A stretch of 59,881 nucleotides of DNA from an uncultured Acidobacteriota bacterium (GCA_964613495.1 CAZTHE010000007.1:1-59881), one strand, 5' to 3'; positions 6,545 through 56,928 are shown, counted from the first letter of the stretch. Numbers and translations: made by a program. Notes: generated by a model not told the origin, from the letters alone.

Positions 6545-8575
6545 ATGGACGGCACTTACTTCATAATGCTCGCAGGATTCGGGGCCGCCGAGGAGAAGCT
6601 CGCCTTGCGCCATTTTACGCAGGCGGGACACCGCGTATCGACGGCGAAAGGCGTTGCGGAGGCGGAGGAGACGCTTCGGAACCGGAGTATCGATCTGGTC
6701 TATCTGCACCCGTCGGCCGAAGATGCGGCCCTCCGCGAATTGGAGACGATCTCCCGGCGGTATCCGTCCCTGCCCGTCGTGCTGGCATGCCCGCAGAATG
6801 CCCGGGGCCTCGTCCTGGATGCGTGGCACGCGGGCGCGGCGGACATCCTTTTTCTTCCGCTGTCGCCGGAGTCGCTCGACGCCAGCCTGCGGCGCGGCGC
6901 CCGCCTGGTCCCCGGCCGGGGAGCCGAACAGGCGCCCGGCGTCCAGGCGCGTTTTTTCCACATCGACGAAGCCGGGAATGAATGCCATTCTGTCATTTTC
7001 CCCCCGAGGTTCACCATAGGCCGGCTCCACGACAACGACCTGATCCTGAGTCCCGTTCAAGTGTCGCGGCACCACGCGGAAGTGCTGGTCCAGGACGGGG
7101 AATACCTGCTGCGCGATATGAGCACTCAGGGGACATACGTCAACGGGACCCGGATCAAGCAAACCAGGCTTGCGAACGGCGACCGGGTGCAATTGGGAGG
7201 CCCGCACGGGCCCGTCCTGGTGTTCCATTCGGGAGATCTCCTCCAGTCGCTTCTGGGCATCTCGGATCCCAAATCGGAAATCAGCCTGAGCCTGCGCGGA
7301 TTCAAGGAAGTGGGGATGCTGTTTGCGACCCTCCGGGCGTTGAGCTCGACGCCGGTGTTGGACGACCTGCTCACGCTCGTGGTGGATACCGCCATCGAAA
7401 TGACGGGGGCCGAGCGCGGCTTCATCATGCTCAAGGAGAAGGGCGGGGAGCTCGAGTTCCGCTGCGCGCGGGACAACCGGAAATTCACGCTGGACGGATC
7501 GGTCTTTCAGACCAGCCGGCGTGTCCCCCACGAAGTCTTCAAAACCGGCCAGCCCGTGGTCATCAAGGACCTGGACCTGGGAGACGAGTTGGAGTCGCAC
7601 AGCGCCACGCGGAAACTCGGGTTGCGCAGCATCTCGTGCGTTCCCCTCCGGTATTTCACGATGCACGATTCGGACAACCTGTCCCGGTCCGAGCACGCCG
7701 AGACGATCGGCGTGCTCTACGTGGACAGTTCCTCCGTCGGCACCGGGTCGTCCGATATGCGCGTCGACGCGCTCCGCACGCTCGCCACCGAAGCGGCGAT
7801 GGCGGTCTACAACGCCCGGTTGTACAAGGACTCCCAGGACAAGCGGAGGATGCAGGAGCAGCTTGCCGTTTCGCACGAGATCCAGCAGGCGCTGCTCCCG
7901 GACCCGAACATCGAACTGCCTTACGCCCGCGCCTGCAGCCAGAGCATCCCGTGTTACGAAGTGGGAGGCGATTACTTCGACTACTTCAACCAGGAAGGCG
8001 GCCGCTTCGGGTTCGCCCTCGGGGACGTGGCGGGGAAAGGGATGCCTGCGGCGCTGCTGGCGTCGCTCATACAGGGTCTCCTTTCCGCACAGCGGCTTTT
8101 CGAGATTCCCCTGCCGGTCTCGATTTCCAACGTCAACCGGATTCTGGCCAAGCGGGGGACCGGCAACCGCTTCATGACCTTCTTTTTCGGCATCCTGGAT
8201 CCCGAGGGGAACTGCACGTACGTAAACGCCGGGCACAATCCCCCCGTCCTGCTCGGCCGGGACGGGTCCATGAAGGAGCTGACGGCCGGCGGCATGGTCA
8301 TGGGCCTTTTTGCGGAAGCGCAGTACGAAGCCGGAAGCGTCAGGCTGGAGCCGGGCGACCACCTGGTGCTGTTCACCGACGGGATCCTGGAGGCCCGCAA
8401 CGTTGCCGACGAGGAATTCGGCGCCGGGCGCCTTTCGGCGCTGCTCCTGGAACGCTGCCGGGCGTCGACCGGTGAAATCCTGGAAAGCCTGCGAGATGCA
8501 GTCCTGACCTTTGCCGCCGACGCGCCGCAGCACGACGACATCACCCTGATGGTCGTGGGATATAGGGAAATCTGA
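6545..8575 (+). CDS. multidomain PP2C (SpoIIE/RsbU-type) serine phosphatase: degenerate receiver-like N-terminus, FHA, GAF, PP2C
   Basis: FHA: RFTIGRLHDNDLILSPVQVSRHHAEV...GTYVNG. GAF: LVVDTAIEMTGAERGFIML. PP2C: GGDYFDYF, GDVAGKGMPAALLAS, FTDGILEA, DDITLMVV. The start is set at MDGTYFIML (6545). Confidence 0.8.
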   Translation: MDGTYFIMLAGFGAAEEKLALRHFTQAGHRVSTAKGVAEAEETLRNRSIDLVYLHPSAEDAALRELETISRRYPSLPVVLACPQNARGLVLDAWHAGAADILFLPLSPESLDASLRRGARLVPGRGAEQAPGVQARFFHIDEAGNECHSVIFPPRFTIGRLHDNDLILSPVQVSRHHAEVLVQDGEYLLRDMSTQGTYVNGTRIKQTRLANGDRVQLGGPHGPVLVFHSGDLLQSLLGISDPKSEISLSLRGFKEVGMLFATLRALSSTPVLDDLLTLVVDTAIEMTGAERGFIMLKEKGGELEFRCARDNRKFTLDGSVFQTSRRVPHEVFKTGQPVVIKDLDLGDELESHSATRKLGLRSISCVPLRYFTMHDSDNLSRSEHAETIGVLYVDSSSVGTGSSDMRVDALRTLATEAAMAVYNARLYKDSQDKRRMQEQLAVSHEIQQALLPDPNIELPYARACSQSIPCYEVGGDYFDYFNQEGGRFGFALGDVAGKGMPAALLASLIQGLLSAQRLFEIPLPVSISNVNRILAKRGTGNRFMTFFFGILDPEGNCTYVNAGHNPPVLLGRDGSMKELTAGGMVMGLFAEAQYEAGSVRLEPGDHLVLFTDGILEARNVADEEFGAGRLSALLLERCRASTGEILESLRDAVLTFAADAPQHDDITLMVVGYREI

Positions 8576-8590
8576 TTCCAGATTCCAGAC
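8566..8590. repeat. heptamer-repeat locus 1 (GGAAATCT then 2x GATTCCA, inverted)
   Basis: GGGAAATCTGATTCCAGATTCCAGAC spans the stop codon of the phosphatase gene. Confidence 0.7.
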
Positions 8591-8606
8591 AAAACCGCAA
8601 CCGCAC

Positions 8607-10031
8607 TCAGAAGCGTTCCGGCAGCCGCGCGCCTCTGATCTTTGCCGGCAGGCTTACGCCCTGGTGCAGCAGCTGCTTCTGCAGCACGACGGTGTCGACG
8701 TCCCTGGGCCTGATTCGCGCCTGCACGGCCAGGGCCGCGGCGGTCCCCGCCGCCTGCCCCATCGCGATGCAGTGCGGGATCAGGTTGAAATATTCGTTGA
8801 ACCGGTAATCGGAAGAGAACGCCCGGCAGGCGACCAGCAGGCCGTCGACGCCCCTGGGCACCAGGGCACGGTACGGGATGCAGACGTTCGGGTGCCTGGC
8901 CGAGATTTCGCCGTTGTCGTTGTCGGGAAACACGGCGATGGTATCTTCGAACACTTCGTCCGACGTCATGTCCTTTTCCGTGCAGACGTACTCGCCGATC
9001 ACCCGCTGGCCGCCCTGGATGCCGAGCTGCGGGGCGCTGAGCGCGATGTAGCTGTTTTCGAAGCCGGGCACGTGCTTCCGGTAGAACTCGTAGGACAGCA
9101 GCATCTTCTTTCTGCCCTCGAGTTCGACCCGGTTGATCTCGCGGATGTCCGCCTGGTTCAGCGAAGGGAAGAAAGGGTGGAACCAGACGACGCCGTCGTG
9201 GCGGCGCACCAGGTCCTTGAGATAAAAGGCGGCGCCTCCCTGCCCGGCCAGGTCCTGCATCAACGCGGCATACCGTTCCGGTTCCGCAGCCCGGAATCCC
9301 TCGAGCCGCTTCATGGCCACATTGCCGATCCAGAACGGGAAGGCGAATGCGGCGATCCGGAGGCCCGGCACCATCTGCGTGTCGCACGCGGCGCCGGCGG
9401 GTTGCAGGAGGTCGCCGTCGCCGGTGCAATCGATGACCACCCTGGCCAGGATGGCCTGCCTGCCCGACTTGCTTTCGATGAAAACGCCCCGGACGGTGTT
9501 CCCGTCCAGGATGGGGCGGGTTCCCCAGCAGTGGAGGCACAGGTGAACCCCGGCTTCTTCCATCATGGTGTTCAGCTCGCACTTCAGGATTTCCGGATCG
9601 GTCAGGACGCTGTACAGCACGCGCTTCCTGCCGATGTTCAGGTCTTCGCGGATATAAAACCACGCCAGGTTCGAATCGATGTAGTGACGGACCAGTTTTT
9701 CGTCCGTGGAACCCCAGCCCTCTTTCCTGGGATAGTCGGCGGCTCCCCGGGCGTCCAGCCGGTCGACCAGTTCCTGGCAGATGCCGGCGATCTGCTGTTC
9801 CCCGTTGATGTTGCCCAGGTTCGGGATGATCGTGACCAGCCCGCCGGTCGCCATGCCTCCCAGATGGCCGTACCGTTCCACGAGCACCGTGTCCGCGCCG
9901 CTGCGCGCGGCGGCCAGGGCCGACCCGATGCCTCCGGGGCCTCCCCCCACGACCAGGACATCGGTTTCCCTGCAGACAGGGATGTCCCGGGCCGATTCCG
10001 TTATCGTCTTCATGCCGTCATGGGTGCTCAT
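8607..10031 (-). CDS. FAD-dependent oxidoreductase
   Basis: 474 aa with the dinucleotide-binding motif DVLVVGGGPGGIGSALAAARSGADTVLVERYGHLGGMATGG. GGGAGG lies 8 nt upstream of the ATG. Confidence 0.75.
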   Translation of the reverse strand: MSTHDGMKTITESARDIPVCRETDVLVVGGGPGGIGSALAAARSGADTVLVERYGHLGGMATGGLVTIIPNLGNINGEQQIAGICQELVDRLDARGAADYPRKEGWGSTDEKLVRHYIDSNLAWFYIREDLNIGRKRVLYSVLTDPEILKCELNTMMEEAGVHLCLHCWGTRPILDGNTVRGVFIESKSGRQAILARVVIDCTGDGDLLQPAGAACDTQMVPGLRIAAFAFPFWIGNVAMKRLEGFRAAEPERYAALMQDLAGQGGAAFYLKDLVRRHDGVVWFHPFFPSLNQADIREINRVELEGRKKMLLSYEFYRKHVPGFENSYIALSAPQLGIQGGQRVIGEYVCTEKDMTSDEVFEDTIAVFPDNDNGEISARHPNVCIPYRALVPRGVDGLLVACRAFSSDYRFNEYFNLIPHCIAMGQAAGTAAALAVQARIRPRDVDTVVLQKQLLHQGVSLPAKIRGARLPERF

Positions 10032-10110
10032 CGTCAGACCTCCCGGGGCTGGACTGGCTTCGCTTTGCCCGCCGCCATAGGCCGCATTTTAAGACAGCGG
10101 CCCCCGCTAT

Positions 10111-10126
10111 GGGAATCAGATTCCGG
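10111..10126. repeat. heptamer-repeat locus 2a (palindromic GGAATC-A-GATTCC)
   Basis: GGGAATCAGATTCCGG lies in the divergent intergenic region. Confidence 0.5.
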
Positions 10127-10226
10127 AGCGGTGTTCCCGAAAAGCACGCCCACGATTTTGCAGGGGAACATTGCGGGCGGCCGGAGGGAGTTCAATTCCG
10201 GATGCCCCACCCCAGGATCCCGACCA

Positions 10227-10250
10227 TTTGGAATCTGGAATCCGATTCCC
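10227..10250. repeat. heptamer-repeat locus 2b
   Basis: TTTGGAATCTGGAATCCGATTCCC. Its last part is the palindrome GGAATC-C-GATTCC. Confidence 0.7.
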
Positions 10251-10332
10251 CTGCCGCAACAGAAGCTTCATCATTTAGGGGATTGGCTCGTGTCTTTTTC
10301 TGATACTATCCTCAGTCTGCGTGTGAAAAATT

Positions 10333-11124
10333 ATGGCCATTCCTGTCGCATTGACCATCGCGGGGTCCGATCCTTCCGGCGGCGCCGGAATCCAGGCGGA
10401 CCTGAAGACGTTCCACCAGCGCGGCGTCTATGGCGAGAGCGTCGTCACGCTCGTGACGGTGCAGAACACCGTGAGGGTCGGCGCCGTTGAGGTGCTCCCG
10501 GCAGGCCTCGTCGCCGCCCAGCTGGAGGCGGTCCTGGAGGACATCCCCCCGGCCGCGGCCAAGACCGGAGCCCTCGGCAACGGCGATATCGTGCGCCTGG
10601 TCGCGGAGCGGGCGCGGCATTTCGGGTTTCCGCTCGTGGTGGACCCCGTGATGGTCAGCAAGCACGGGCACCCGCTGATGACGGCGGAGGCCCGGGCCGC
10701 CGTCGCGGAACTCCTCCTGCCCCGGGCTTTTCTCGTCACGCCGAATCTCCACGAGGCGGGGGAGTTGGCCGGGATATCCGTGACCGGTATCGGTTCGATG
10801 AAAGAAGCGGCGGCCCGCATCGCCGCGCTCGGGGCGCACGCCGTCCTGGTCAAAGGGGGGCACCTCGAAGGCGACGCGGTCGATATCCTGTACAGGGACG
10901 GACGCGTGCGCGAATACCGCTCGCCGCGCATACAGACCGTGCACACGCACGGGACGGGGTGCACCTATTCCGCCTGCATCGCGGCCGAGCTGGCCAAAGG
11001 GCAAAGCCTGGAAGGCGCCGTGGATGTCGCCAAGAAGTTTATTTCGCTGGCCATCGCCACGAACCCCGGGCTCGGCAGGGGAGCCGGGCCGGTCAACCAC
11101 CACGCGCGAATACCCGAATCCTGA
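10333..11124 (+). CDS. thiD: hydroxymethylpyrimidine/phosphomethylpyrimidine kinase
   Basis: 263 aa with [22 protein letters not shown] ... [19 protein letters not shown], the characteristic ThiD motifs. Confidence 0.9.
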
Positions 11125-11306
11125 GTCCGGACGCGGCCTTCGCGTTGTCTTTTGCGGCCGGGGCTTTTATGCTTTAAAGAAATTTCCGGACCTGACGCCG
11201 TTCCGCGCCGCCAGCGACTCCCGGGAAGCCTTCGAGTGCCCGAAAGGGGACCCGACCGGAATTCACAAATTCCAGCCTGCATCCCCGGGTTGGAGACGGG
11301 ATTTTT

Positions 11307-12647
11307 ATGGACGACTATTTGCTCGAGCGCCGGTACGAAGAGCCCCCGGCCTCAAAAAAGGACCACCGCCACGCTACCGAGCGCGACCGGGACCGCGTCC
11401 TGCACAGTTCCGCGTTCCGGAGACTCCAGGGAAAAACCCAGGTCTTCGGCATCGGCCAGGCCGACTTCTACCGCACGCGCCTGACCCATAGCGTGGAAGT
11501 CGCGCAGATCGCGCGGGCGATCGCCACCAACCTGCTTTTCGAGCAGCCGCTCCTGGGGCGCTGCCTTTCGCCGGAACTCGCCGAGGCGACGGCCCTCGCG
11601 CACGACCTGGGGCACCCTCCGTTCGGCCACGCCGGGGAGCAGACGCTGGACGCTTGCATGCGGGAAGTCAGCCGTAAGGGGCGGCTCAGAGGGAAAAATC
11701 TGCTCCGGTTCGAAGGAAACGCCCAGACGTTCCACATCCTGGTCGCCGCCGAACCGAAATCGCCGTCCTATCCGGGGCTGAACCTGACGCGCGCGACCCT
11801 GGCCGGCGTGTTGAAATATCCTTACGCGCAGGAGACCGGGAACGACAAATTCGTCTTCGCATCCGACCTGCCGGCTGCGCGGTGGGCGCTGGAACACGGA
11901 GGCCCGGTTCTTGCGGAACAGAAAAGGCCCTCGCGCCGCCGGCACCGGACATCCATCGCCTGCCAGGTCCTGGATTGGGCGGATGACTGCGCCTACTCGA
12001 TCCATGACGTGGAGGACGCGCTGCAGGCGCAGTTCCTGCATCCCGGCGACCTGGAGGACGCACGCTTCGCCCGGCGCGTCCTCGCGCACTACGAAGAGAC
12101 GCGCGCGGAAGAGGCGGTGCCCGGGCTCTCGCTTGCGGAGGTCCGCGGCCGGCTCCTGGACCTGGAGCGGCGGATCAAGCCGTCCGAACAGGGCGATGAG
12201 CGGGCGCAGCGGAAAGCCGCCATGCGCAACATCCTGAACGACCTGATCACGTCCGTCTCGGTGGAGTCCTGCGGCGGGAGCCGGCGGTCGGATTTCTCCT
12301 GGCGGCTGATCGTGCCGGATGAGGCCCGCATCCTGTCCGTTTTATGCAAATCCGTGATCTGGGAGGCCGTGATCACGGATCCGCGGGTCGCCGCCATGAG
12401 CACCAAGGGCCGCGAAATCCTGCGCGACCTGTTTCATCTGCTGATGGACGAAGTCCTGGAGAAGAAGAGCGCCGTCCTGTTTCCCCGATACTACCGGCCG
12501 ATCATCGAGGAGTGCATGGGCGGGGACCCGGCGGAGGCGGCGCGCGCCGTCTGCAATTTCCTGGCGCTGCTGACCGACATGGATGCGCTACGGTTTCACG
12601 CTCTGCTGCGCGGCTCCAAGGCCTCTTCCGTCTTCGACTTCATCTAG
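11307..12647 (+). CDS. dGTP triphosphohydrolase-like HD-domain protein
   Basis: 446 aa with RDRDRVLHSSAFRRLQGKTQVF ... RTRLTHSVEVAQIAR ... HDLGHPPFGH. Confidence 0.85.
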   Translation: MDDYLLERRYEEPPASKKDHRHATERDRDRVLHSSAFRRLQGKTQVFGIGQADFYRTRLTHSVEVAQIARAIATNLLFEQPLLGRCLSPELAEATALAHDLGHPPFGHAGEQTLDACMREVSRKGRLRGKNLLRFEGNAQTFHILVAAEPKSPSYPGLNLTRATLAGVLKYPYAQETGNDKFVFASDLPAARWALEHGGPVLAEQKRPSRRRHRTSIACQVLDWADDCAYSIHDVEDALQAQFLHPGDLEDARFARRVLAHYEETRAEEAVPGLSLAEVRGRLLDLERRIKPSEQGDERAQRKAAMRNILNDLITSVSVESCGGSRRSDFSWRLIVPDEARILSVLCKSVIWEAVITDPRVAAMSTKGREILRDLFHLLMDEVLEKKSAVLFPRYYRPIIEECMGGDPAEAARAVCNFLALLTDMDALRFHALLRGSKASSVFDFI

Positions 12648-13388
12648 CCCCTTTCCCCGGACCGCCTTGCGCCAGACGGCCGTGGCCCACCATGCGGCCG
12701 CCTCGCGCCACGCCAGCGGGGAAGTCTCGAGCCGCACGCGCCCGCGCCGGATCGCATGCAGCACGGAGTGCACGGCCGGTTCGGAATACACCCATGCGAA
12801 CGTTCTCCCCAGTTGCCACAGGAAATGCACGTCGCCGCACCCCACGAGCGGCTTCAGCGTCTCTTCGGCGAGGCGGACGGCGCGGCGGTTGAAGTCCAGT
12901 CCCCGGACCCGGAACCCGGAGTACTCGACGGCATCGACTGCGTCCGGGTTTCTGCGCAGCATCCCGCGCAGGCAGCTGCGGTCGGGGAAATACGGGTGCG
13001 GCGCGATGACGAGCGTGTCCGGGCCGGAGCGCGCGCGTATCTTTTCCAGGGTGTTCAGGTTTTCGGCCGCCGTGCGGAAGTTGTAGACCAGCACGTGCCG
13101 GCCCCTTTCCACGGTCACCTCCATGCCGGGAATCAGCGTGATGCCCCGTTCCCGGGCGTAGTCCGCCAGGTCCGGCGTCCAGACGTCGAGGTCGTGGCAG
13201 GTGACGGAGAGTATCCTGTAGCCGATTGAGGCTGCCCTGTCGATGAGCTGCCCGGGAGTGTGCCGGCACATGCAGCGGTCTTCGGGATCGAGGCTGCAGT
13301 GCGCGTGCAGTTCCGCTTTCAGCCATTGCCTTCCGGTTCCCCAGTTTTCGCTCATGTCCGGCGTCCCCCCGCTGGCCTTTCTGCCCAC
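12588..13388 (-). CDS. PHP-domain metal-dependent phosphoesterase
   Basis: 266 aa with an N-terminal LKAELHAHCSLDPED (PHP His cluster) and later GCGDVHFLWQ. An alternative start is at 13355 (MSENW). The 3' end overlaps the convergent dGTPase-like gene by 60 nt. Confidence 0.65.
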   Translation of the reverse strand: MGRKASGGTPDMSENWGTGRQWLKAELHAHCSLDPEDRCMCRHTPGQLIDRAASIGYRILSVTCHDLDVWTPDLADYARERGITLIPGMEVTVERGRHVLVYNFRTAAENLNTLEKIRARSGPDTLVIAPHPYFPDRSCLRGMLRRNPDAVDAVEYSGFRVRGLDFNRRAVRLAEETLKPLVGCGDVHFLWQLGRTFAWVYSEPAVHSVLHAIRRGRVRLETSPLAWREAAAWWATAVWRKAVRGKGLDEVEDGRGLGAAQQSVKP

Positions 13389-13457
13389 GGCCTACTTATC
13401 GGCAGAGCGGGAGCCGCAATCGACGATAATCGCGGCCCGTGCCCGGCCGCAACGCAG

Positions 13458-13486
13458 TTGACAGGGGGGGGCGGGTTTTATACGCT
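13458..13486 (+). promoter_or_regulatory. candidate sigma70-type promoter for proS
   Basis: TTGACA, a 17-nt spacer, then TACGCT, ending 37 nt upstream of the proS ATG. Confidence 0.3.
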
Positions 13487-13498
13487 TTCAGCCTTTGA

Positions 13499-14962
<1,464 letters not shown>

Positions 14963-15043
14963 TAGATTCCAGATTCCAGATTCCAGAGGCAGCCCCAATC
15001 TGGAATCGGGAATCTGAAATCTGGAATCCGGAATCTGAAATCC
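14963..15043. repeat. heptamer-repeat locus 3: inverted arrays forming a ~24-bp-stem hairpin between convergent genes
   Basis: TAGATTCCAGATTCCAGATTCCAGA, a 9-nt spacer, then AATCTGGAATCGGGAATCTGAAATCTGGAATCCGGAATCTGAAATCC. It fills the whole proS/MBL intergenic gap. Confidence 0.85.
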
Positions 15044-15726
15044 TATCCCATATCGCGCACGAAGCGCTGGACGGAATCGTAATTCATGTAGGGATTCGAC
15101 TGTTTCTGCTCGCCGATGGTCGACTGCGGGCTGCCGCCGTAATCGTGCCCCGGGTAGACGATCGTGCCGTCGTCCAGGGACCGCAGCGTGTGGTTCAGGC
15201 TCCACCACATCTTCGCCGGGTCCCCCCCCGGCATATCGACGCGTCCGCAGGCGTCGACGAAAAGAGTGTCTCCCGAGAAGAGACAGCCCTCGACCAGGAA
15301 GCACTGGGATCCGGGGCTGTGGCCGGGCGTGTGCAGACACCGGATGGAGAGCCTGCCGACCCGGACGGTGTCCCCGTCGGCGACCGTCCGGATACTTGCG
15401 GCCCGCGTCTTTAGAAAAGCCGTCGACATGCCGAAACTGCGGGCAACCTCCTGCATGTACGGCACCTCGTCGGCGTGGATGACCATCGTCGCATCGGTGG
15501 CCTCCAGCAACGGCTCCAGGGCGTTGACGTGGTCCGGGTGTCCGTGGGTCAGCAGGACGTGGCGGATCTCGAGCCGCAGCTCCCGCGCCAGGTCCATGAT
15601 TTCCCCCGGTTCCCACGCGGGATCCACGACGGCGGCGTCTCTCGTTTCCGCGCACCCGATCAGGTACACGTAATTCATCATGGGGCCGATCGGCGTCTGT
15701 TTCACGATCAAGTTCGGTGATGGCAT
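15043..15726 (-). CDS. MBL-fold metallo-hydrolase (glyoxalase II-like)
   Basis: 227 aa with LLTHGHPDHV ... HTPGHSPGS ... GDTLF ... YPGHDY. The RBS is GGAGGGACAGG. Confidence 0.8.
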   Translation of the reverse strand: MPSPNLIVKQTPIGPMMNYVYLIGCAETRDAAVVDPAWEPGEIMDLARELRLEIRHVLLTHGHPDHVNALEPLLEATDATMVIHADEVPYMQEVARSFGMSTAFLKTRAASIRTVADGDTVRVGRLSIRCLHTPGHSPGSQCFLVEGCLFSGDTLFVDACGRVDMPGGDPAKMWWSLNHTLRSLDDGTIVYPGHDYGGSPQSTIGEQKQSNPYMNYDSVQRFVRDMG

Positions 15727-15813
15727 CCTGTCCCTCCGCGATTAAGAGTATACAAGAAAGCGCGCATCAGGCTACCATTTCCACGGGGGGACTGCCGTGT
15801 CGCAGGCGAGGCC

Positions 15814-16794
15814 ATGGAATGCCGGGCGGAGTTGAAAACTCGGTGCGGAAGCCGCCGGATTCTTGCCGGCCTGATCCTGTGCGCGGTCTGCGCCGCCGTT
15901 CTGGCTGCCGGGGCCGATGCCAGGGCGGACGCGTATGGGGACGTCCCCCAAAAGGAGACGCCGAAAAAATTGCGGGATTCCTGGCTGCGCTTCCACGAAA
16001 ACGGGATGTGCGGCGACATCGATGCGGAATTCGTATTCGAAGGCCCGGGAATGCGGATATGGAGCCGAATCGAGGGCGAGAAGGAATCTGCCCGGTTCCG
16101 GAAATTTTTCGAGCCGCTGATCAGGAACTACCGGGTCGAGATATACATCAACCGCCCGCGCGAATGGGACAGGGCCGAAATCGCAACGGACCCTCCCCCG
16201 GGCCTCTGGCAGAACCAGGAGTTGCGTTACAACCTGGGAGACCGGCTCGCGCGTTCCCTGAGGGACCTGGATTTCGACGAGGATTCTGCCGCGAACCCCT
16301 ATTGGGCGGATGCGCTGCTGAAACAGCGCCTGCTGGTGTACGCCGAGCAGACCCTGAAACGAAACCGGAAGATGGAGCACGGCGCCCTCCACCTGTTCGC
16401 CCTCGTACGCGCGGCTTTCGATCCGGCCGCCGCGCCCGACTTCAGGGCCCGGGCCATCGCCGCTGGCTCCGCGCACGCGAAAGAGCTCGAGAAGAACATC
16501 GAGAAGCTGGCCGGCGATCTCAGGCAGGCCACCCCGGGCTCCGGGAAGGGGAACCGCGCGTCCCGCCCGGACGCGGCACCCGATCCGGCGGCGCCGTCGC
16601 TTCCGGATGCGGCGGAACGGCTCTACGCGGACGCCCGGGGCGCGGCCGGCCGCGTCCACCGCTTCATCTATCCCGAGCAGTACACGGTCGAGTTGGGGGA
16701 ATTGCGAACCCCGGGCCTTCTCGAATCCCTGGCGCGGCTCCAGCGGAAGACGCGCGACCTGCGCAGGGCGCTGGAAGCCGCGGCCCGCAGATAG
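15814..16794 (+). CDS. hypothetical secreted protein
   Basis: 326 aa with a signal-like RRILAGLILCAVCAAVLAAGADARA. No family recognised. Confidence 0.55.
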   Translation: MECRAELKTRCGSRRILAGLILCAVCAAVLAAGADARADAYGDVPQKETPKKLRDSWLRFHENGMCGDIDAEFVFEGPGMRIWSRIEGEKESARFRKFFEPLIRNYRVEIYINRPREWDRAEIATDPPPGLWQNQELRYNLGDRLARSLRDLDFDEDSAANPYWADALLKQRLLVYAEQTLKRNRKMEHGALHLFALVRAAFDPAAAPDFRARAIAAGSAHAKELEKNIEKLAGDLRQATPGSGKGNRASRPDAAPDPAAPSLPDAAERLYADARGAAGRVHRFIYPEQYTVELGELRTPGLLESLARLQRKTRDLRRALEAAARR

Positions 16795-16924
16795 TCGGCC
16801 GGAACGGGCCGGGCCGCGACGCCTTGACCTTGCCGGTGATAGACGCGATAATCCGGATTCGGGCCGCAGGGACCGCACGGCGCAATCCGACGTCGGCGCC
16901 CCGACCGGACCGGGGACGGTATTC

Positions 16925-17956: not shown

Positions 17957-18225
17957 TCGAACACGACCGTCTGCAGCGTGGATATCTCGATCGTCTTGCC
18001 GCAGCGCGGATTCTTGCAGCGCAGCTTGTCATCGAGACGAATCCGGTAGTTGCGCGCCTTGGCGAACCGGGCGCGGTCCTGCTCGTTGGCTCCCGGCGGA
18101 AGAGACGCCTTCTTGGTCCGGCGGCGCCAGCGGATCGGGTATTCCATTGAAGTCCGGCATTTCGGGCAGTAGATCGTGGCAGGCACGATTTCGTCTTTCT
18201 CGGTGAAAAGGTCACGTTCTTCCAT
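17953..18225 (-). CDS. small zinc-ribbon hypothetical protein
   Basis: 90 aa with CPKC ... CKNPRC (four Cys). It overlaps the hemE stop by 4 nt (convergent). Confidence 0.5.
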   Translation of the reverse strand: MEERDLFTEKDEIVPATIYCPKCRTSMEYPIRWRRRTKKASLPPGANEQDRARFAKARNYRIRLDDKLRCKNPRCGKTIEISTLQTVVFD

Positions 18226-18339
18226 AGCGATGCATTATAGGACGCCAGGGCCCGCGGCGACAGCGGGAATTTGATGTATTATGGGTCTCTGCCGCCGTCC
18301 GGCCGGGAATTCGGGCGCGGCCGGAAATGACCCGGCAGA

Positions 18340-19107: not shown

Positions 19108-19162
19108 CGCCTGGTCCTCCGCGCGTTTTTGCGCCGGGGGCCGCAAGCGGGCCGGACCGAGG

Positions 19163-24087: not shown

Positions 24088-24102
24088 AATTTGAGGTGAG
24101 TT

Positions 24103-25521: not shown

Positions 25522-25606
25522 ATCCCGGCAGGGAACCGCTGCCTGACGCGTGACGGGAAAGGTTGGAGCGCTGGAAGTGCAATAGAACTGCGAGGCCTGA
25601 TTTCTT

Positions 25607-27382: not shown

Positions 27383-27425
27383 GAAATCGATCCCAGATCC
27401 CAGATTCCAAATTTCAGATTCCAGG
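27383..27425. repeat. heptamer-repeat locus 4 (about 5 units, AGATTCC orientation), abutting the RBS of the next gene
   Basis: GAAATCGATCCCAGATCCCAGATTCCAAATTTCAGATTCCAGG is followed directly by AGGCGGGGGAAAGACGGC-ATG. Confidence 0.8.
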
Positions 27426-27443
27426 AGGCGGGGGAAAGACGGC

Positions 27444-33265: not shown

Positions 33266-33321
33266 TCAATCCGGAATCTGGATTCTGAAATCCTGGATCT
33301 GGAATTTGGAATCTGGAATCG
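33266..33321. repeat. heptamer-repeat locus 5 (about 8 units, GGAATCT orientation)
   Basis: CAATCCGGAATCTGGATTCTGAAATCCTGGATCTGGAATTTGGAATCTGGAATCGA, ending 6 nt before the PilZ gene stop. Confidence 0.85.
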
Positions 33322-33740: not shown

Positions 33741-33777
33741 GGGATTTGATTCCAGATTCCAGAATCCGGATTCCCGA
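33741..33777. repeat. heptamer-repeat locus 6 (AGATTCC orientation, ends in the 12-bp palindrome GAATCCGGATTC)
   Basis: GGGATTTGATTCCAGATTCCAGAATCCGGATTCCCGA. Confidence 0.8.
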
Positions 33778-33857
33778 TGGCGAATGACCGGTCGGTCCCG
33801 AATAATCCTTCGTCCCGACCCGACTCACGGTTGCCCAAATCGGTGCCCCGCAGGCTT

Positions 33858-33890
33858 ATCTGGAATCTGAAATCTGGAATCTGAAATCCG
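33858..33890. repeat. heptamer-repeat locus 7 (GGAATCT orientation)
   Basis: ATCTGGAATCTGAAATCTGGAATCTGAAATCCG. It is inverted relative to locus 6, which lies 80 nt away. Confidence 0.8.
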
Positions 33891-41167: not shown

Positions 41168-41170
41168 GGC

Positions 41171-47260: not shown

Positions 47261-47272
47261 TAGTCTATGAAC

Positions 47273-48931: not shown

Positions 48932-50077
48932 TCAGCCGCGTCCCCGGTTGATATGAACGACCCGGGCCGGGGGAAACCCGTTGAACCAGGTCGAGGAGGC
49001 GTGCGTGTATGCGCCGATTTTTTCGCTGTAGACGAGGTCTCCGAGCTTTAGCTCCGGGAGTTCCTCGGCCTGTGAGATGGTATCCAGGGCGTCACAGGTG
49101 GGTCCGAATACGGCCGAAATGCGTTTGCGTCCCTTTTTGAACGCCTTCAGGTGGTACTGGCAATGGTCGAACAGGATGCCCGAGAAGGTGTGATAGATTC
49201 CGTCGTTGATGTAGTAGCACCGCTTGCCGTCGCGCTCGGACTTTCCGATGACCTCGGCCACCAGCGTCGCCGCGGTCCCGACCATGTATCTTCCGGGTTC
49301 CGCGAGGATTTCGAGGCTCCTGGGGAACAGGCGGTTCAGTTCCGTGCTCAGGATGCGTGCCAGCTCGCGGAACGGCCGGACGTGCCGGTCGTAGCGCGCC
49401 GGGAACCCGCCCCCGATGTCGAGCAGTTTCAGGGAAATCCCCCGCCCTTCGGCCTCTTCCATAATGGAGGCCGAGATCGACAGCGCCTGCACGTAATTTT
49501 CGAAGTTGGTGCACTGGCTCCCGACGTGGAATCCCATGCCTTCCAGCGTCAGTCCCGCGTCCGCGGCCGCCGCGAGCAGGTCGACCGCTTCGCCCGGGGC
49601 CGCGCCGAATTTGCTGGAGAGTTCGACCATCGATCCGGTATTGGGAACCCGGATGCGCAGGACCAGCCCGGCATTGGGCGCATGCTTCCGGATCTTCTGG
49701 ATCTCCTCGGCATTGTCGAATGCTACCAGCGGCCGGTACGTGTCCAGTTCCTCCAGCGTGCGCCGGTCCTTGATCGGGTTGGAGTAGACGATCTTGTCCC
49801 AGATAAACTCCTGGCGGACGTCCGCGGGCAGGTCCCGGATGTTTTCGTATACCAGGTTGAATTCGGCGATGGACGCGACGTCGAAGCTGGCGCCCGCGTC
49901 GTACAGAGTCCGGATGATCTCGGGATCGGGATTCGCCTTCACGGCGTAATACGCCTGGACCCGCGGCAGGTAGCGCCTGAACGCGGTGTAGTTGCTGCGC
50001 ACGGCATCGTGGTCCACGACAAACAGCGGTGTCCCGTGTTTCTGGGCAAGCTCCCTGAGTTGGCTCGTTTTGACCAT
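48932..50077 (-). CDS. type III PLP-dependent (ornithine/lysine/arginine) decarboxylase, ODC fold
   Basis: 381 aa with TPLFVVDHDAVRSNYTAF ... AYYAVKANPDPEIIRTL ... DIGGGFP ... GPTCDALD. Confidence 0.8.
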   Translation of the reverse strand: MVKTSQLRELAQKHGTPLFVVDHDAVRSNYTAFRRYLPRVQAYYAVKANPDPEIIRTLYDAGASFDVASIAEFNLVYENIRDLPADVRQEFIWDKIVYSNPIKDRRTLEELDTYRPLVAFDNAEEIQKIRKHAPNAGLVLRIRVPNTGSMVELSSKFGAAPGEAVDLLAAAADAGLTLEGMGFHVGSQCTNFENYVQALSISASIMEEAEGRGISLKLLDIGGGFPARYDRHVRPFRELARILSTELNRLFPRSLEILAEPGRYMVGTAATLVAEVIGKSERDGKRCYYINDGIYHTFSGILFDHCQYHLKAFKKGRKRISAVFGPTCDALDTISQAEELPELKLGDLVYSEKIGAYTHASSTWFNGFPPARVVHINRGRG

Positions 50078-50151
50078 GGTTCCGCGCGTCGCACGCCCGG
50101 GGAGGCTTCGGAGGCGCCATGCGGCGCCTCCCTCCCGGCATGCCGAATGGG

Positions 50152-51309
50152 TTACAGTTGTTTGTTGTGCTTCCAGTATTCGGTCGTGACCAGCTCCATG
50201 ATTTCCGGGAGCTTGTCATAGAGGCGTTTGAGTTTCCGCGGCCGGCACTTGGCCATGGCGTAGTGGACGAGCAGCGGAAACGCGACCGTCGAATCGACGT
50301 AGCAGACGACGGCGTCGGGCAGCTGCATCGGATCGACCTTGCCCCATGTGACGGCCTCGTGGGGCGTGGCGCCCGACAGCCCGCCGGTGTCGGGCCTGGC
50401 ATCGGTGAATTGGATGAAATAGTCGTGCCCTTCCTCCTTGACGCGCAGCACTTCCTGGATCTGCGGTTCCGTCTGGAGGGTGAAGTTCTTGGGAGACCCG
50501 CCGCCGATCAGGAGCGTTCCCGTCTTCAGGCCGGCGCGTTTGGCGGCCAGCACGATCCCGGTCGACTCGTTCACGTCGCGCGAGGGGTTGATGCGCAGGG
50601 CGTTGTCGCGCAGCTCCAGGCCGGCGATGTTCATGCCGATGGTGGAATCGCCGGGAGACGGGCAGAAACAGGGCACGCCGGCGCGGTAGGCCGCGGCCAG
50701 AACGGAGCTGTTTATGCGTCCGGTCTGCTCCTCGAACTCGGCGCAGTATTTCCCCAGCAGGTAATGCAGTTCCGTCGTGCCCATCTCATGCTGGAATTCG
50801 GGCTGCATGAGGATCTGCCGCAGCACATGATCCGTGGCCATGAGGACGTCGTTGTAATCGAGAAGGATGTCGTAGATCCGCACGACGCCCAGCCTCCGGA
50901 GTTCCGGGTCCGGGGAGAAGGGCGAGCCGCGGAAGAGCGGCATGTTCATCGCGTGGTGCATGTCGTGGTAGAGATTCGCGCCCGTAGACACGATCCAGTC
51001 CACGAATCCCGCATTGATCAGCGGAATGACGGCGGCGGACCCGATTCCGGCCGGCGTCATCGCTCCCGACAGGCTCATGCCGACGGTGACTTTCGGCTGC
51101 AGCATTTTTTCGGCGAACAGGCGGCACGCTTCCTGCAGGCGGCCGGCGTTGTAGGCCAGGAACGTGTCGTCGATGAGGTCTGCCGCCGATTCCTTGCCGG
51201 AAATCGGCTTGGGCAGAATGCGCTTGCCGCGCAGGAACTGCTGCTTGCCTTTCGAAAACTTGTGGGGATATTTGCTGACGAATCTCTTGGGCAATTTGAC
51301 GTTACCCAT
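50152..51309 (-). CDS. deoxyhypusine synthase-like protein
   Basis: 385 aa with [30 protein letters not shown] and [22 protein letters not shown], all DS-family motifs. Confidence 0.8.
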
Positions 51310-52249
51310 GGCTGCGTCTCCTTTGCGTTGTCCTGCCGCTTCCGATCAGGGTGTAGGAAAAGAGTTTATAGACGAGTTTGGCCGCCAGGAAGTCCGGCGC
51401 CCGGAATCCCGGGATCGGGGCCAGCTCGACCACGTCGAAGACGGGCACCCCGGCCGCGTTCGCGCAGACCGTCCGGGCGATATCGAGCATCCGGTCCCAC
51501 GAAATGCCGCCCGGTTCCGGCGTTCCCACCGCCGGCATGATCGACGGATCCAGGCCGTCCAGGTCGACGGTCAGGAAGACGAGCTTCTTTTTCACGAACC
51601 GGGCCAGGTCTTTGAGGAATCCGCCCCGCGGATCGTTCGCCTCTTCCGAAAACACCGTCCGGATATGCCGGGTGCGGCGCATGAAGGCCGCCTCCTCGCC
51701 CGAAAAGTTCCGGATGCCGATCTGGAATATCGGGCAGCATTCCTGGATGCGCTTCGCCGCGCAGGCATGGCTGTACGGCGAGCCCTCATACTCCTCGCGC
51801 AGGTCCGCGTGCGCGTCCACGTGCACGACAACCAGCGATTCCGGGTGCAGCGCGCGCACCAGGCCGCGCACGACGCCGCCGGAAATGGAATGCTCGCCGC
51901 CCAGCACCCCCAGGACCTTCGGGCGGCGCTTGCCGGACAGCAGCTGCGCCACGCCTTCCTCCACGGCCCCGATCATAGCCTCGGGGGAGCGGTGCACCAG
52001 GTTCAGCGCGGAGGTCGTGTGGATGCCGTATTCCATGGCGGGCTCGCAGCCGAATTCGCGGTCATACAGCTCCACCTGGCGCGATGCGGCCAGGATCGCC
52101 GCCGGCCCTTCCCGCGTCCCCGCCCCATAGGATGTCGTCGATTCGTAGGGGATGGGCAGGAGCCAGCCGCGCGCCTTTGCCGGATCCGACATTTCCTCCG
52201 GCAATCCCAGAAAATTCCATGGAGTCTGAAACAGATCGTGTCCGGACAT
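51302..52249 (-). CDS. speB: agmatinase (ureohydrolase family)
   Basis: 315 aa with [20 protein letters not shown] and [23 protein letters not shown]. It overlaps the DHS-like gene by 8 nt. Confidence 0.85.
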
Positions 52250-53678: not shown

Positions 53679-53724
53679 AAATTATATGATAGCATCCGGC
53701 TGGAAATTGGTACGGGGGTGCACG

Positions 53725-54729: not shown

Positions 54730-54834
54730 TCAGCCACTGTCGCAAAACTCATCTTTCGGCCCCGACAGGGGCGGCACAATCGACTCCACAGACCACAACG
54801 TGTGGTGTTTTCGAGATTGTTGGGGCGCAGGTAG

Positions 54835-54870
54835 TCTGGAATCGGGAATCTGGAATCGGGAATCATTCCC
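54835..54870. repeat. heptamer-repeat locus 8
   Basis: TCTGGAATCGGGAATCTGGAATCGGGAATCATTCCC. It ends in the palindrome GGGAAT-C-ATTCCC, 16 nt upstream of the next ATG. Confidence 0.8.
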
Positions 54871-54885
54871 ATGTAGACTCCTGCC

Positions 54886-56043: not shown

Positions 56044-56065
56044 TGAAGCGACCGGGCGTGATGCG

Positions 56066-56842
56066 ATGAAGAAATACCTGGCGGAGGTGGAAGATCTCCT
56101 GGACCGTCTTTACATCGCGGCGGAAGGGGCCGGGTTGCGCCTGGAGGACCGGCGCAAGGCGCCTGAAGTGGCGGCGCTCCTGGAAGAGGTGGAGCGCGCC
56201 GCGTCTCGCATGTCGCGACGGTCCCCGCTGCTCCTCGTGGACGCCGCCGCGGGGAAATCCTATGTCGGCCTGTTGGCCGCCAGGCTGGTCTTCGAAGCCT
56301 CCGGCCGCGGCGCGTCCGTCATCACGATCGAGCGCGATCCGCTCCGCGTCGACGCGGCGCGCCGCGCCGCGGAACGGCTGGGCGCCAGGATCCCCGTGGA
56401 ATGCCGCACCGGGGCGGTGGAAGAGGCCGCGGCCTGGCCGCAGCGGCCGTCGATCGTCACGGCGCTGCACGCCTGCGGCGCCGCGGCGGACGCCGTCCTG
56501 GACGGCGCCGTCGCCTCTGGCGCGCGCACCCTGCTGCTCGTCCCCTGCTGCACCAGCGCGGCGGTAGCCGCCTCCAACCCGGCGAGCGCCCACGCGGAGG
56601 CGCTGGGCATTCCACCGGCGGCTCCCGTGCGCCGCCGCTTCATCCAGTCGGTGATAGACGCCGAGCGGACGCTGCGCCTCGAGGCCGCCGGCTACGAGAC
56701 CGAAGTCGTGGAATTCGTCGCGCCCACCGGCACCCCCCACAACCTCCTCTGGCGCGCGCGTCTCGTGAAAGAACCGCGGCGCATGGCCGCCGCCAAAACC
56801 GCGTGGGAAAACCTCACGTCCGTCCGCGCCGGTTTGGGTTGA
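56066..56842 (+). CDS. SAM-dependent methyltransferase-like protein
   Basis: 258 aa with LLLVDAAAGKSYVGLLAA (motif I-like) and ALHACG ... LVPCC, similar to the Methyltransf_32-type pattern. Confidence 0.55.
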   Translation: MKKYLAEVEDLLDRLYIAAEGAGLRLEDRRKAPEVAALLEEVERAASRMSRRSPLLLVDAAAGKSYVGLLAARLVFEASGRGASVITIERDPLRVDAARRAAERLGARIPVECRTGAVEEAAAWPQRPSIVTALHACGAAADAVLDGAVASGARTLLLVPCCTSAAVAASNPASAHAEALGIPPAAPVRRRFIQSVIDAERTLRLEAAGYETEVVEFVAPTGTPHNLLWRARLVKEPRRMAAAKTAWENLTSVRAGLG

Positions 56843-56874
56843 AGCCATTCCGGCCCGATCGTCCTCCGCCCCCC

Positions 56875-56928
56875 CATCTGCAATCCGGAATCTGCAATCT
56901 GGAATCTGGAATCTGGAATCTTGGATCC
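56875..56928. repeat. heptamer-repeat locus 9 (about 7 units)
   Basis: CATCTGCAATCCGGAATCTGCAATCTGGAATCTGGAATCTGGAATCTTGGATCC. Confidence 0.85.

What the first reader, a model, noticed from the sequence alone, without database searches (positions are those of the whole stretch)
8566..56928. Dispersed family of degenerate heptanucleotide tandem repeats (GGAATCT)n confined to intergenic DNA
At least 10 loci carry 2-8 tandem copies of a 7-bp unit:
- 8566-8590
- 10111-10126
- 10227-10250
- 14963-15043
- 27383-27425
- 33266-33321
- 33741-33777
- 33858-33890
- 54835-54870
- 56875-56928

The consensus unit is GGAATCT (= CTGGAAT / GAATCTG), with variants GGAATCG, GAAATCT, GGATTCT, GCAATCT and GGAATCC. 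I saw no array of 3 or more units inside a confidently called gene. The arrays sit right at gene ends or just upstream of starts, and occupy roughly one in five intergenic gaps. They occur in both orientations and often end in a head-to-head palindrome (GGAATC-N-GATTCC, GAATCCGGATTC).

Most units contain GAATC/GATTC, which is a GANTC site. GANTC is the target of CcrM-type adenine methyltransferases and the preferred context of GcrA-type regulators. The window also encodes a GcrA-N-domain-like protein at 31251-31544.

The closest known analogue I can name is the STRR heptamer-repeat family of heterocystous cyanobacteria, whose unit sequences are different. I know of no described element with this unit.

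Possible roles:
- terminators or RNA-stability hairpins
- clustered methylation or regulator-docking sites
- GGA-rich protein-sponge RNA
- slippage-prone contingency tracts
Basis: partly seen in the sequence, partly recalled or inferred. Interest (0 to 1): 0.72.

Follow-up and report, generated by a model that had tools for sequence, protein, structure and literature searches.

The report
Hypervariable intergenic heptamer repeat family (GGAATCT)
A soil-type Acidobacteriota contig carries many short tandem arrays of the 7-base unit GGAATCT packed between genes; they gain and lose units between near-identical strains and often pair up into hairpins at gene ends, making them a new member of the little-understood 'heptamer repeat' families already seen in Xanthomonas and cyanobacteria.

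Summary
All eight arrays of 3 or more units lie in the 11% of the window that is non-coding. Two-unit matches number 29, against 0.5 in shuffles.

The contig is from Acidobacteriota. The family is lineage-specific: 0.9 Mb from relatives (ProRS 72-82% identical) and three syntenic loci hold essentially none. Exact (GGAATCT)3 nevertheless recurs in more than 114 GTDB loci, mostly Acidobacteriota and Planctomycetota.

Same-species contigs (97.4-100% identical) show 3, 4 or 5 units at one array and 6 versus 8-9 at another. One intergenic allele lacks the arrays altogether. Slippage-type hypervariability is therefore shown, and an assembly artefact is excluded.

Inverted array pairs fold strongly (z -4 to -7). 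Single arrays do not fold. Arrays hug stop codons, and their polarity is nearly fixed within a phylum.

The closest known relative is the Xanthomonas GGGAATC family (6 of 7 bases), not STRR. That family's pairs have the opposite polarity, and our unit lacks a G3 tract. The GANTC/CcrM/GcrA reading has no support.

Best reading: slippage-grown microsatellites whose paired form acts as a REP-like 3'-end hairpin. That function is inferred, not shown.

The parts
8566..8590 (-). Short array (GGAAATC T GATTCC AGATTCC) in the convergent gap between the FHA-GAF-SpoIIE gene (6422-8575, +) and the FAD oxidoreductase gene (8607-10031, -). The TGA stop at 8573-8575 is the first three bases of a TGATTCC unit.
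10111..10126 (.). Two-unit head-to-head palindrome GGGAATC-A-GATTCC in the divergent gap 10031-10333. A minimal member, not a tandem array.
   Evidence: fold -9.9 kcal/mol, z -2.1
10227..10250 (+). GGAATCT GGAATCC followed by an inverted GATTCCC, 83 nt upstream of the phosphomethylpyrimidine kinase gene (10333-11124, +).
14963..14987 (-). Left arm, (AGATTCC)3, starting 1 nt after the ProRS stop codon (ProRS 13523-14962, +).
14995..15043 (+). Right arm, 6-7 GGAATCT-type units with a 21-nt higher-order period, ending at the stop of the metallo-beta-lactamase-fold gene (15043-15726, -). With the left arm it fills the 80-nt convergent gap. It folds at -36 kcal/mol (+ strand RNA) and -49 kcal/mol (- strand RNA), z -4.1 and -7.3.
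27383..27425 (-). Single degenerate array of about 5 units between the Nfu_N gene (26888-27331, +) and the HAD hydrolase gene (most likely start ATG at 27443). As RNA it is unstructured (z +1.9 and +0.2).
33266..33321 (+). Single degenerate array of about 7 units, 5 nt downstream of the PilZ gene stop (33327-33671, -). The mRNA reads CGAUUCC AGAUUCC and so on.
33741..33777 (-). Array of 4 units, about 70 nt upstream of the PilZ start. It is the distal arm of a long-range inverted pair with 33858-33890. It has 4 units here and 5 in strains L201, L202 and L204.
33858..33890 (+). Array of 4 units, 25 nt downstream of the redoxin gene stop (33916-34416, -). Same-species contigs carry 3, 4 or 5 units. 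Paired with 33741-33777 across an 87-nt spacer, it folds at -68.7 kcal/mol (z -5.4).
54835..54870 (+). Array of 4 units with a 14-nt period (GGAATCG GGAATCT)2, capped by the palindrome GGGAATCATTCCC. It lies 15 nt upstream of the metallophosphoesterase gene start (54886). It does not fold better than shuffles.
56875..56928 (+). Array of 6-7 units between the methyltransferase gene (56066-56842, +) and the radical-SAM gene (56999-58144, +). It is unstructured (z +0.8 and +1.1).

Best explanation
These are lineage-specific heptanucleotide microsatellites with consensus GGAATCT (AGATTCC on the other strand).

**Origin and growth.** They arise and grow in place by replication slippage, often in blocks of 2-3 units. 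They are tolerated only in non-coding DNA and spread until they meet a coding sequence. The stop codon is frequently the first bases of a unit (TGA-TTCC, TAG-ATTCC, TAA-ATTCC).

**Likely function.** Where two oppositely oriented arrays share one gap, in the order 5'-(AGATTCC)n-spacer-(GGAATCT)m-3', either transcript folds into a long hairpin right after the gene. I think this most likely defines or protects transcript 3' ends, in the way REP/BIME hairpins or U-tract-less terminators do. Single arrays do not fold and are probably precursors or by-products.

**Shown:** the arrays exist, they are confined to intergenic DNA, their unit number differs between strains, arrays are present or absent between strains, they lie next to stop codons, their polarity is biased, and the pairs have hairpin potential.

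**Inferred:** slippage as the mechanism of growth, and the termination or stabilisation function.
For: **Growth in place**
- Higher-order periods of 14 and 21 nt match better than period 7: 100%, 100% and 96% against 87%, 90% and 82%.
- Contigs 97.4-100% identical to the window differ in unit number. The array after the redoxin gene has 3, 4 or 5 units and its partner arm 4 or 5. The arm next to the metallo-beta-lactamase-fold (MBL) gene has 6 versus 8-9 units, and the arm next to ProRS has 3 versus 2.

**Intergenic confinement**
- 8 of 8 arrays lie in the 11.3% of the window that is non-coding.
- In 114 other loci only 25% of array clusters overlap crude ORF calls, although those calls cover 82% of the DNA.

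**Association with gene 3' ends**
- 42 arrays lie within 15 nt of a stop codon and 14 within 15 nt of a start codon.
- The stop codon is often embedded in the first unit.
- Convergent gaps are enriched: 26% of intergenic clusters against 17% of gaps. Divergent gaps are depleted: 13% against 26% of intergenic length.

**Hairpins**
- Paired arrays fold at -36 to -69 kcal/mol with z -4.1 to -7.3. L212 behaves the same way.

**Functional replacement at the same gap**
- The orthologous ProRS-MBL gap in relative L196 holds an unrelated hairpin (z -5.9).
- The array-free allele of the same species (L208-L210, L213) holds another stem of 12 + 7 bp.
Against: - There are no transcript data.
- No U-tract follows the hairpins. 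The consensus terminator scan of 1-20000, which covers four of the array loci including the 14963-15043 pair, reports none of them.
- Variant units in one arm are not compensated in the other: mismatch fraction 0.1705 against 0.1732 with shuffled partners. So nothing points to selection on pairing beyond the shared unit.
- Arms are often very unequal, for example 3 versus 7 or 4 versus 21 units.
- About half of the arrays are single and fold no better than shuffles.
- Relative L198 has no hairpin in the orthologous gap (z -0.2).
- The near-fixed polarity does not follow from hairpin thermodynamics.
Confidence: 0.5

Rival explanations
1. A purely mutational by-product. The arrays are slippage-prone 'junk' microsatellites (heptamers have been reported as over-represented among long bacterial SSRs) that persist wherever selection does not remove them. 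Hairpins and stop-codon adjacency are side effects of arrays filling neutral space.
For: - Turnover within one species is extreme, including complete presence or absence at one gap.
- Syntenic relatives have no arrays.
- The two arms show no covariation.
- Arm lengths are unequal.
- Single arrays are unstructured.
- The function of the Xanthomonas family also remains unidentified.
Against: - Pair polarity is nearly fixed within a phylum: 29:1 in Acidobacteriota, 12:0 in Planctomycetota and 0:6 in Patescibacteria.
- Stop-proximal arrays read AGAUUCC in 33 cases and GGAAUCU in 9. Symmetric neutral slippage does not predict this.
- The same unit recurs in several phyla, while control DNA shows no excess of heptamer repeats.
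Confidence: 0.3
2. A periodic binding or processing platform for a lineage-specific trans-acting factor, such as an RNA-binding protein, a ribonuclease or a DNA-binding protein that reads one strand. The factor's horizontal spread would explain the patchy cross-phylum distribution and the fixed polarity.
For: - Polarity is fixed by phylum and fixed relative to genes.
- Single arrays are unusually unstructured, which suits single-strand recognition.
- The identical unit occurs in genomes of 37-70% GC.
- AGAUU matches the RN/WUU RNase E consensus. This rests on my own recall and was not tested.
- MacGregor 2015 proposed a post-transcriptional regulator for TAACTGA repeats.
Against: - No candidate protein was identified. 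The window encodes only housekeeping functions.
- Unit numbers are unconstrained (2 to more than 20).
- Arrays are dispensable within a species.
Confidence: 0.12
3. G-quadruplex or i-motif elements, as proposed for the Xanthomonas GGGAATC and Nostoc GGGGAYT repeats.
For: - Array length peaks at 4 units in the genome loci (72 of 220). Four G-tracts are the minimum for a G4, and Xanthomonas shows the same peak.
Against: - The unit has only GG, so at best a weak two-tetrad G4 with 5-nt loops could form.
- The 4-unit peak comes from loci selected for at least 3 perfect units. The unbiased window shows no such peak.
- The same genomic behaviour without a G3 tract argues, if anything, against G4 as the common cause.
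Confidence: 0.04
4. A mobile element (a MITE, or a REP/REPIN mobilised by a RAYT transposase) whose ends are heptamer arrays.
For: - The inverted-pair architecture sits in intergenic DNA near gene ends.
- One intergenic gap shows presence or absence within a species.
Against: - Spacers between arms are unrelated in sequence and range from 0 to 97 nt.
- There are no target-site duplications or conserved flanks.
- The window has no transposase or RAYT gene.
- Only one hit in 2.9 million viral contigs.
Confidence: 0.03
5. Clustered GANTC methylation or GcrA-docking sites.
For: - Most units contain GAATC or GATTC.
- A small ORF (31251-31544) gives a weak hit to the N-terminal part of the GcrA profile, E 1.2e-3.
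Against: - That hit is below Pfam's threshold (19.7 against 26.9 bits).
- GANTC positions 2 and 6 are among the more variable positions of the unit.
- GANTC is under-represented overall (256 against 328 +/- 17). Outside the arrays it is not enriched in intergenic DNA: about 45 of the 61 non-coding sites fall inside arrays, by my rough count.
- The organism is an Acidobacteriota.
- No DNA methyltransferase of that type is in the window.
Confidence: 0.02

Closest known systems
Xanthomonas GGGAATC heptamer repeats (Rehm et al. 2015, PLoS One, PMC4692102)
   Same: - The unit shares 6 of 7 bases (TGGAATC against GGGAATC), and GGGAATC occurs here as a minority variant.
- Arrays of 2-26 degenerate units are dispersed across the chromosome.
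- About 90% are intergenic, a few nt from ORF ends and often overlapping the stop codon.
- They are depleted between divergent genes.
- Inverted pairs are frequent.
- Array length differs between related strains.
- No link to mobile elements.

   Different: - There is no G3 tract, so the proposed G4 is not available.
- Pair polarity is opposite. Xanthomonas has plus then minus, (GGGAATC)n..(GATTCCC)m. Here it is (AGATTCC)n..(GGAATCT)m, 29:1 in Acidobacteriota.
- The stop-proximal strand is C-rich here and G-rich there.
- The host phyla differ.
Cyanobacterial STRR / Nostoc GGGGA(C/T)T heptamer repeats
   Same: Tandem heptamers dispersed in intergenic DNA, function unknown.
   Different: - The unit sequences differ.
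- Few inverted pairs occur in Nostoc.
- They are confined to cyanobacteria.
TAACTGA direct repeats of Beggiatoaceae, cyanobacteria and Bacteroidetes (MacGregor 2015, PMC4679880)
   Same: An identical heptamer recurs patchily in unrelated phyla with no evident transfer mechanism. The repeats are intergenic.
   Different: - Those repeats sit a few nt upstream of start codons. These sit mainly just after stop codons.
- Only one indirect repeat is reported there, whereas inverted pairs are common here.
REP/BIME (REPIN) extragenic palindromes
   Same: Intergenic hairpins that lie mostly at gene 3' ends and between convergent genes. They are thought to stabilise or terminate transcripts.
   Different: - REPs are single imperfect palindromes of 20-40 nt with a GTAG or CGTC tag, tied to RAYT transposases (PMC3733652, abstract).
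- Here the stems are built of tandem 7-mers of variable number, with no tag and no RAYT gene in view.

Membership tests
Dispersed intergenic heptamer SSR families (Xanthomonas GGGAATC type) | Tandem arrays of a 7-nt unit with degenerate copies, at many loci | tested here: met
   8 robust arrays plus 3 minimal ones in 60 kb
Dispersed intergenic heptamer SSR families (Xanthomonas GGGAATC type) | Strong bias to non-coding DNA, close to ORF ends and often overlapping the stop codon | tested here: met
Dispersed intergenic heptamer SSR families (Xanthomonas GGGAATC type) | Frequent inverted pairs of arrays | tested here: met
   The arm order is opposite to that in Xanthomonas.
Dispersed intergenic heptamer SSR families (Xanthomonas GGGAATC type) | Unit-number variation between related genomes | tested here: met
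Dispersed intergenic heptamer SSR families (Xanthomonas GGGAATC type) | G3-4 tract in every unit (G4-forming GGGNATC) | tested here: not met
   position 7 (the base before GG) is T in 0.67-0.81 of units and G in only 0.04-0.11
Cyanobacterial STRR | STRR unit sequences in a cyanobacterial host | tested here: not met
The unit is GGAATCT and the host is Acidobacteriota.
REP/REPIN | A conserved 20-40 nt imperfect palindrome with a GTAG/CGTC head, associated with a RAYT gene | tested here: not met
   no conserved head or flank. The window has no RAYT gene. The whole genome could not be tested.
MITE | Terminal inverted repeats around a conserved core, with target-site duplication | tested here: not met
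Phase-variation contingency locus | A hypermutable SSR inside an ORF or a promoter spacer that switches a surface or R-M gene | tested here: not met
   Hypermutability is met. The arrays, however, lie after stop codons of housekeeping genes.
Canonical intrinsic terminator | A GC-rich stem-loop followed directly by a U-tract | tested here: not met
   The stem is present for paired arrays. There is no T-run, and the scan of 1-20000, which covers four of the array loci including the 14963-15043 pair, does not call them.
CcrM/GcrA GANTC regulatory sites | A CcrM-type methyltransferase, a bona fide GcrA, and selectively conserved GANTC | tested here: not met
   The search for a methyltransferase covered this window only.

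The most novel reading that the evidence does not exclude
GGAATCT arrays mark an undiscovered, horizontally spreading system. A trans-acting factor, either an RNA-binding or RNA-processing protein or a repeat-propagating enzyme, would read one strand of the heptamer array. That would explain three things:
- why the identical unit appears in Acidobacteriota, Planctomycetota, Patescibacteria and others;
- why pair polarity is almost invariant within a phylum and reversed in another;
- why the G-strand 3' end always faces the neighbouring gene.
Probability: 0.12. Interest if true: 0.8.

Novelty: new member of a known kind. Interest (0 to 1): 0.45.

Why it matters
Dispersed heptamer repeats have been reported in cyanobacteria, Xanthomonas, Beggiatoaceae and Chloroflexus. 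None has an established function or origin.

**What this family adds**
- It extends the phenomenon to Acidobacteriota and Planctomycetota.
- The same genomic behaviour occurs without a G3 tract, which weakens the G-quadruplex explanation.
- It reveals a polarity rule that is fixed by lineage.

**A natural experiment**
Array-bearing, array-length-variant and array-free alleles of one convergent gap occur in one species. Array-free and array-bearing contigs of that gap both come from run SRR8925769, though the array-bearing contig there lies at another locus. Metatranscriptomes or 3'-end mapping of such samples could test directly whether the arrays end or stabilise transcripts.

**A practical consequence**
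These arrays break short-read assemblies and create spurious ORFs.

Tried and rejected
- **Rfam** (gathering thresholds) and a **tRNA scan** of the window found nothing.
- **Self-complementary unit.** My idea that GGAAUCU is quasi-self-complementary, so that single arrays would fold on themselves, was rejected. Single arrays fold no better than shuffles (z -1.6 to +1.9).
- **MITE or REP.** Rejected: spacers are not conserved, and there are no target-site duplications or conserved flanks.
- **Compensatory variation between arms.** None found.
- **Phage or mobile origin.** Only one hit in IMG/VR viral contigs.
- **Planctomycete origin.** First suspected from DNA hits to an Isosphaeraceae MAG. 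Rejected: amino-acid identity is only 50-60%, and ProRS homologues point to Acidobacteriota.
- **Exact-protein look-ups.** ProRS, the Nfu_N gene and the methyltransferase returned nothing. Two JGI contigs could not be read.
- **Mrazek 2007 PNAS paper.** Not held in the library.
- **Literature search.** Four of the six repeat strings found no paper. The other two hit only unrelated papers, none of them on bacterial repeats.
Full report

Yes. Tandem Repeats Finder reports period-7 arrays at nine of the listed places, with 2.3 to 7.6 copies. A two-unit pattern with up to 2 mismatches hits 29 times, against 0.49 (maximum 3) in dinucleotide-preserving shuffles. The window consensus is GGAATCT. Positions 1 and 3-6 are conserved at 93-100%, while position 2 (78% G) and position 7 (67% T) vary.

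Two listed loci are weak. 10111-10126 is only a head-to-head palindrome of two units, and 10227-10250 is two tandem units plus an inverted one.

I called genes from GC3 and Pfam content. On those calls the window is about 89% coding, and all eight arrays of at least 3 units lie in the 11.3% that is non-coding. They fall in 8 of about 50 intergenic gaps. Rfam and the tRNA scan find nothing.

**2. Whose DNA is this, and how widespread is the family?**

The window is ordinary chromosomal DNA with housekeeping genes and no transposase. These include ProRS, URO-D, acetolactate synthase, KARI and a polyamine gene cluster. The closest ProRS sequences that carry a source name are from Acidobacteriota, at up to 88% identity.

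The family is lineage-specific.
- Eighty metagenome loci were picked only by ProRS similarity (72-82% identical, 0.9 Mb). Together they contain a single two-unit match and show no excess of period-7 repeats.
- The window has 11 arrays in 60 kb.
- Three syntenic loci, L196, L197 and L198 (ProRS 87-88% identical), have no arrays.

About 0.3 would be expected by chance in 596 Gb. Of these, 51 are Acidobacteriota (many Pyrinomonadaceae and Blastocatellia) and 22 are Planctomycetota (mainly Isosphaeraceae). Smaller numbers come from Patescibacteria, Bacteroidota, Bacillota and others, across 37-70% GC. Only one hit turned up in IMG/VR viral contigs.

Three caveats apply. The scan was truncated, most hits are MAGs so some may be mis-binned, and I could not run control heptamers.

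**3. What do the arrays do over short evolutionary time?**

Exact-protein look-ups for the redoxin, PilZ and metallo-beta-lactamase-fold (MBL) genes returned contigs from other samples and assemblers that are 97.4-100% identical to the window. In these contigs:
- The array after the redoxin stop has 3, 4 or 5 units, and its partner arm has 4 or 5, within otherwise almost identical flanks.
- In the ProRS-MBL gap the arm next to the MBL gene has 6 versus 8-9 units, and the other arm 3 versus 2.
- Four contigs whose flanks are 97.8-99.4% identical to the window (L208-L210, L213) carry no arrays in that gap. They have an unrelated 245-nt sequence instead.
- One strain (L201) has a different paired array, CGATTCC...GGGAATC, after the PilZ gene.
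- Several short-read contigs end inside arrays.

Inside the window, variant units recur with 14- and 21-nt periods, which indicates duplication of blocks of 2-3 units.

The arrays are therefore real and hypervariable, and they turn over within a species. Slippage is the natural mechanism, but that is an inference.

**4. Anatomy and position**

Across the window and the 114 loci the arrays show the following.
- **Intergenic bias.** Only 25% of array clusters overlap crude ORF calls that cover 82% of the DNA. Many of those overlaps are spurious, because the arrays are free of stop codons in all six frames.
- **Gap type.** Convergent gaps are enriched and divergent gaps depleted.
- **Stop codons.** Forty-two arrays lie within 15 nt of a stop codon and 14 within 15 nt of a start codon. 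The stop codon is often the beginning of the first unit: TGA-TTCC, TAG-ATTCC or TAA-ATTCC.
- **Strand next to the gene.** Stop-proximal arrays read AGAUUCC in the mRNA in 33 of 42 cases (p = 3e-4). Start-proximal arrays lean the other way, 22 to 10 within 40 nt.
- **A single rule.** In this window and in Acidobacteriota and Planctomycetota generally, the 3' end of the GGAATCT strand faces the neighbouring gene.
- **Pair order.** Inverted pairs are almost always ordered 5'-(AGATTCC)n-spacer-(GGAATCT)m-3', 45 to 9 overall. By phylum the counts are 29:1 in Acidobacteriota, 12:0 in Planctomycetota and 0:6 in Patescibacteria.
- **Not a transposable element.** Spacers are unrelated in sequence and 0-97 nt long. 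There are no target-site duplications or conserved flanks.

**5. Structure**

Paired arrays fold into long hairpins on either strand. The 14960-15046 pair gives -36 and -49 kcal/mol (z -4.1 and -7.3). The 33742-33890 pair gives -69 kcal/mol (z -5.4).

Single arrays fold no better than shuffles, and sometimes worse (z up to +1.9). My idea of a self-pairing unit is therefore rejected. Variant units in one arm are not mirrored in the other (0.1705 against 0.1732 with shuffled partners). No U-tract follows the stems, and the consensus terminator scan of 1-20000, which covers four of the array loci, does not pick them up.

The same convergent ProRS-MBL gap holds a strong hairpin of unrelated sequence in relative L196 (z -5.9). 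It holds another stem in the array-free allele. L198, however, has none.

**6. Mechanism**

My best reading has two parts.
- The arrays are microsatellites that grow by slippage in non-coding DNA until they meet a gene.
- Their paired form supplies a REP/BIME-like hairpin at the transcript 3' end, acting in termination or as an exonuclease block.

I put about 0.9 on the growth part and about 0.4 on the function part, and 0.5 on the explanation as a whole.

The main rival is that they have no function at all (0.3). The polarity rules are the chief argument against pure neutrality and keep a trans-factor model alive (0.12). G4, MITE/REP and GANTC/GcrA readings are minor or rejected, for the reasons given under rival explanations.

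**7. Comparison with what is known**

A closer match is the Xanthomonas GGGAATC family (Rehm et al. 2015, PMC4692102).
- **Shared features.** Six of seven bases are shared. That family has about 185 arrays per genome, 89-93% of them intergenic, on average 28 nt from the upstream ORF and often overlapping the stop codon. It is depleted between divergent genes, has 70-75 inverted pairs, and varies in length between Xcc and Xac. Its function is unknown, and a G4 was proposed.
- **Differences.** Our unit has GG rather than GGG. Xanthomonas pairs run plus then minus, the reverse of ours.

Other heptamer families are Nostoc GGGGAYT/STRR, TAACTGA in Beggiatoaceae, cyanobacteria and Bacteroidetes, and GATAGRA in Chloroflexus. 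I found no paper that holds tandem GGAATCT as a bacterial repeat. This is therefore a new member of a known but unexplained kind.

**8. Verdict**

Hairpins and slippage tracts hold up. GANTC/GcrA and a GGA sponge do not.
- Interest is moderate (0.45). The phenomenon itself is not new. The cross-phylum recurrence, the lineage-fixed polarity and the co-existing alleles give a concrete handle on an old, niche question.

Noticed in passing
L208:3185-3429 (also L209, L210, L213), compared with window 14963-15043: Contigs whose flanks are 97.8-99.4% identical to the window, and whose MBL-fold protein is identical, carry a completely different 245-nt ProRS-MBL intergenic sequence. It has no heptamer arrays and has its own 12 + 7 bp stem. 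ProRS ends in TAG there rather than TGA. This is an intergenic allele swap within one species.
   Followed up: partly
L201:2203-2415: A strain 98.4-99.7% identical to the window has a different paired array downstream of the PilZ gene. It is built of CGATTCC and GGGAATC units (the Xanthomonas-type unit) around a spacer of about 70 nt. The window has a single degenerate array at that position.
   Followed up: partly
Loci L018, L030, L067, L071, L079 (Patescibacteria MAGs): All six inverted pairs in Patescibacteria have the reverse arm order, (GGAATCT)n..(AGATTCC)m. This is opposite to the 41:1 order in Acidobacteriota plus Planctomycetota and the same as the Xanthomonas GGGAATC pairs. The reason is unknown.
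   Followed up: partly
L012:6309-6412 (Isosphaeraceae MAG CAWHUG01): A second heptamer array, (GGATGCC)n, lies directly between two GGAATCT arrays. Other unrelated heptamer units (AAAAGTG, AATGTGG, ACACCTG and others) also appear in the array-bearing loci. Some genomes may therefore tolerate or generate heptamer arrays in general.
   Followed up: no
L036:302-449: One array pair is nested inside a perfect 15-nt inverted repeat (cgtctcggccgctcc ... ggagcggccgagacg). The arrays look as if they sit within the stem of an older hairpin.
   Followed up: no
L196:11457-11523: In a syntenic relative without arrays, the orthologous ProRS-MBL gap holds an unrelated perfect hairpin with a stem of about 19 bp (-29.7 kcal/mol, z -5.9).
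   Followed up: yes
It is conserved next to a DUF4342 gene in same-species contigs L206 and L207.
   Followed up: partly
window, whole: GANTC is under-represented (256 sites against 328 +/- 17 under a first-order Markov model), even though the arrays add about 45 sites. GACTC and GAGTC (27 and 31 sites) are much rarer than GAATC and GATTC (106 and 92 sites) in a 63% GC sequence.
   Followed up: no
L199, L200, L205, L206, L207 contig ends; L208:3219-3398: Short-read contigs end inside these arrays. Separately, public gene calls place a 59-aa ORF in the array-free 245-nt allele of the ProRS-MBL gap (L208:3219-3398). In my own crude ORF calls, the arrays, which are stop-free in all six frames, extend ORFs spuriously.
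   Followed up: partly
window 21536-26842: Three consecutive HlyD-type membrane-fusion genes are followed by a MacB/FtsX permease gene, an unusual triplication. The synteny is conserved in relatives L196 and L198.
   Followed up: no
window 48932-52249 (-): A polyamine gene cluster: an Orn/DAP/Arg decarboxylase, a deoxyhypusine-synthase-like gene (probably homospermidine synthase) and an arginase/agmatinase-family gene.
   Followed up: no
window 15814-16794 (+): A 326-aa ORF with no Pfam match, even at E of 1 or below. It is conserved at the same position in relatives and same-species contigs (306-326 aa in L196, L198 and L208-L213).
   Followed up: no
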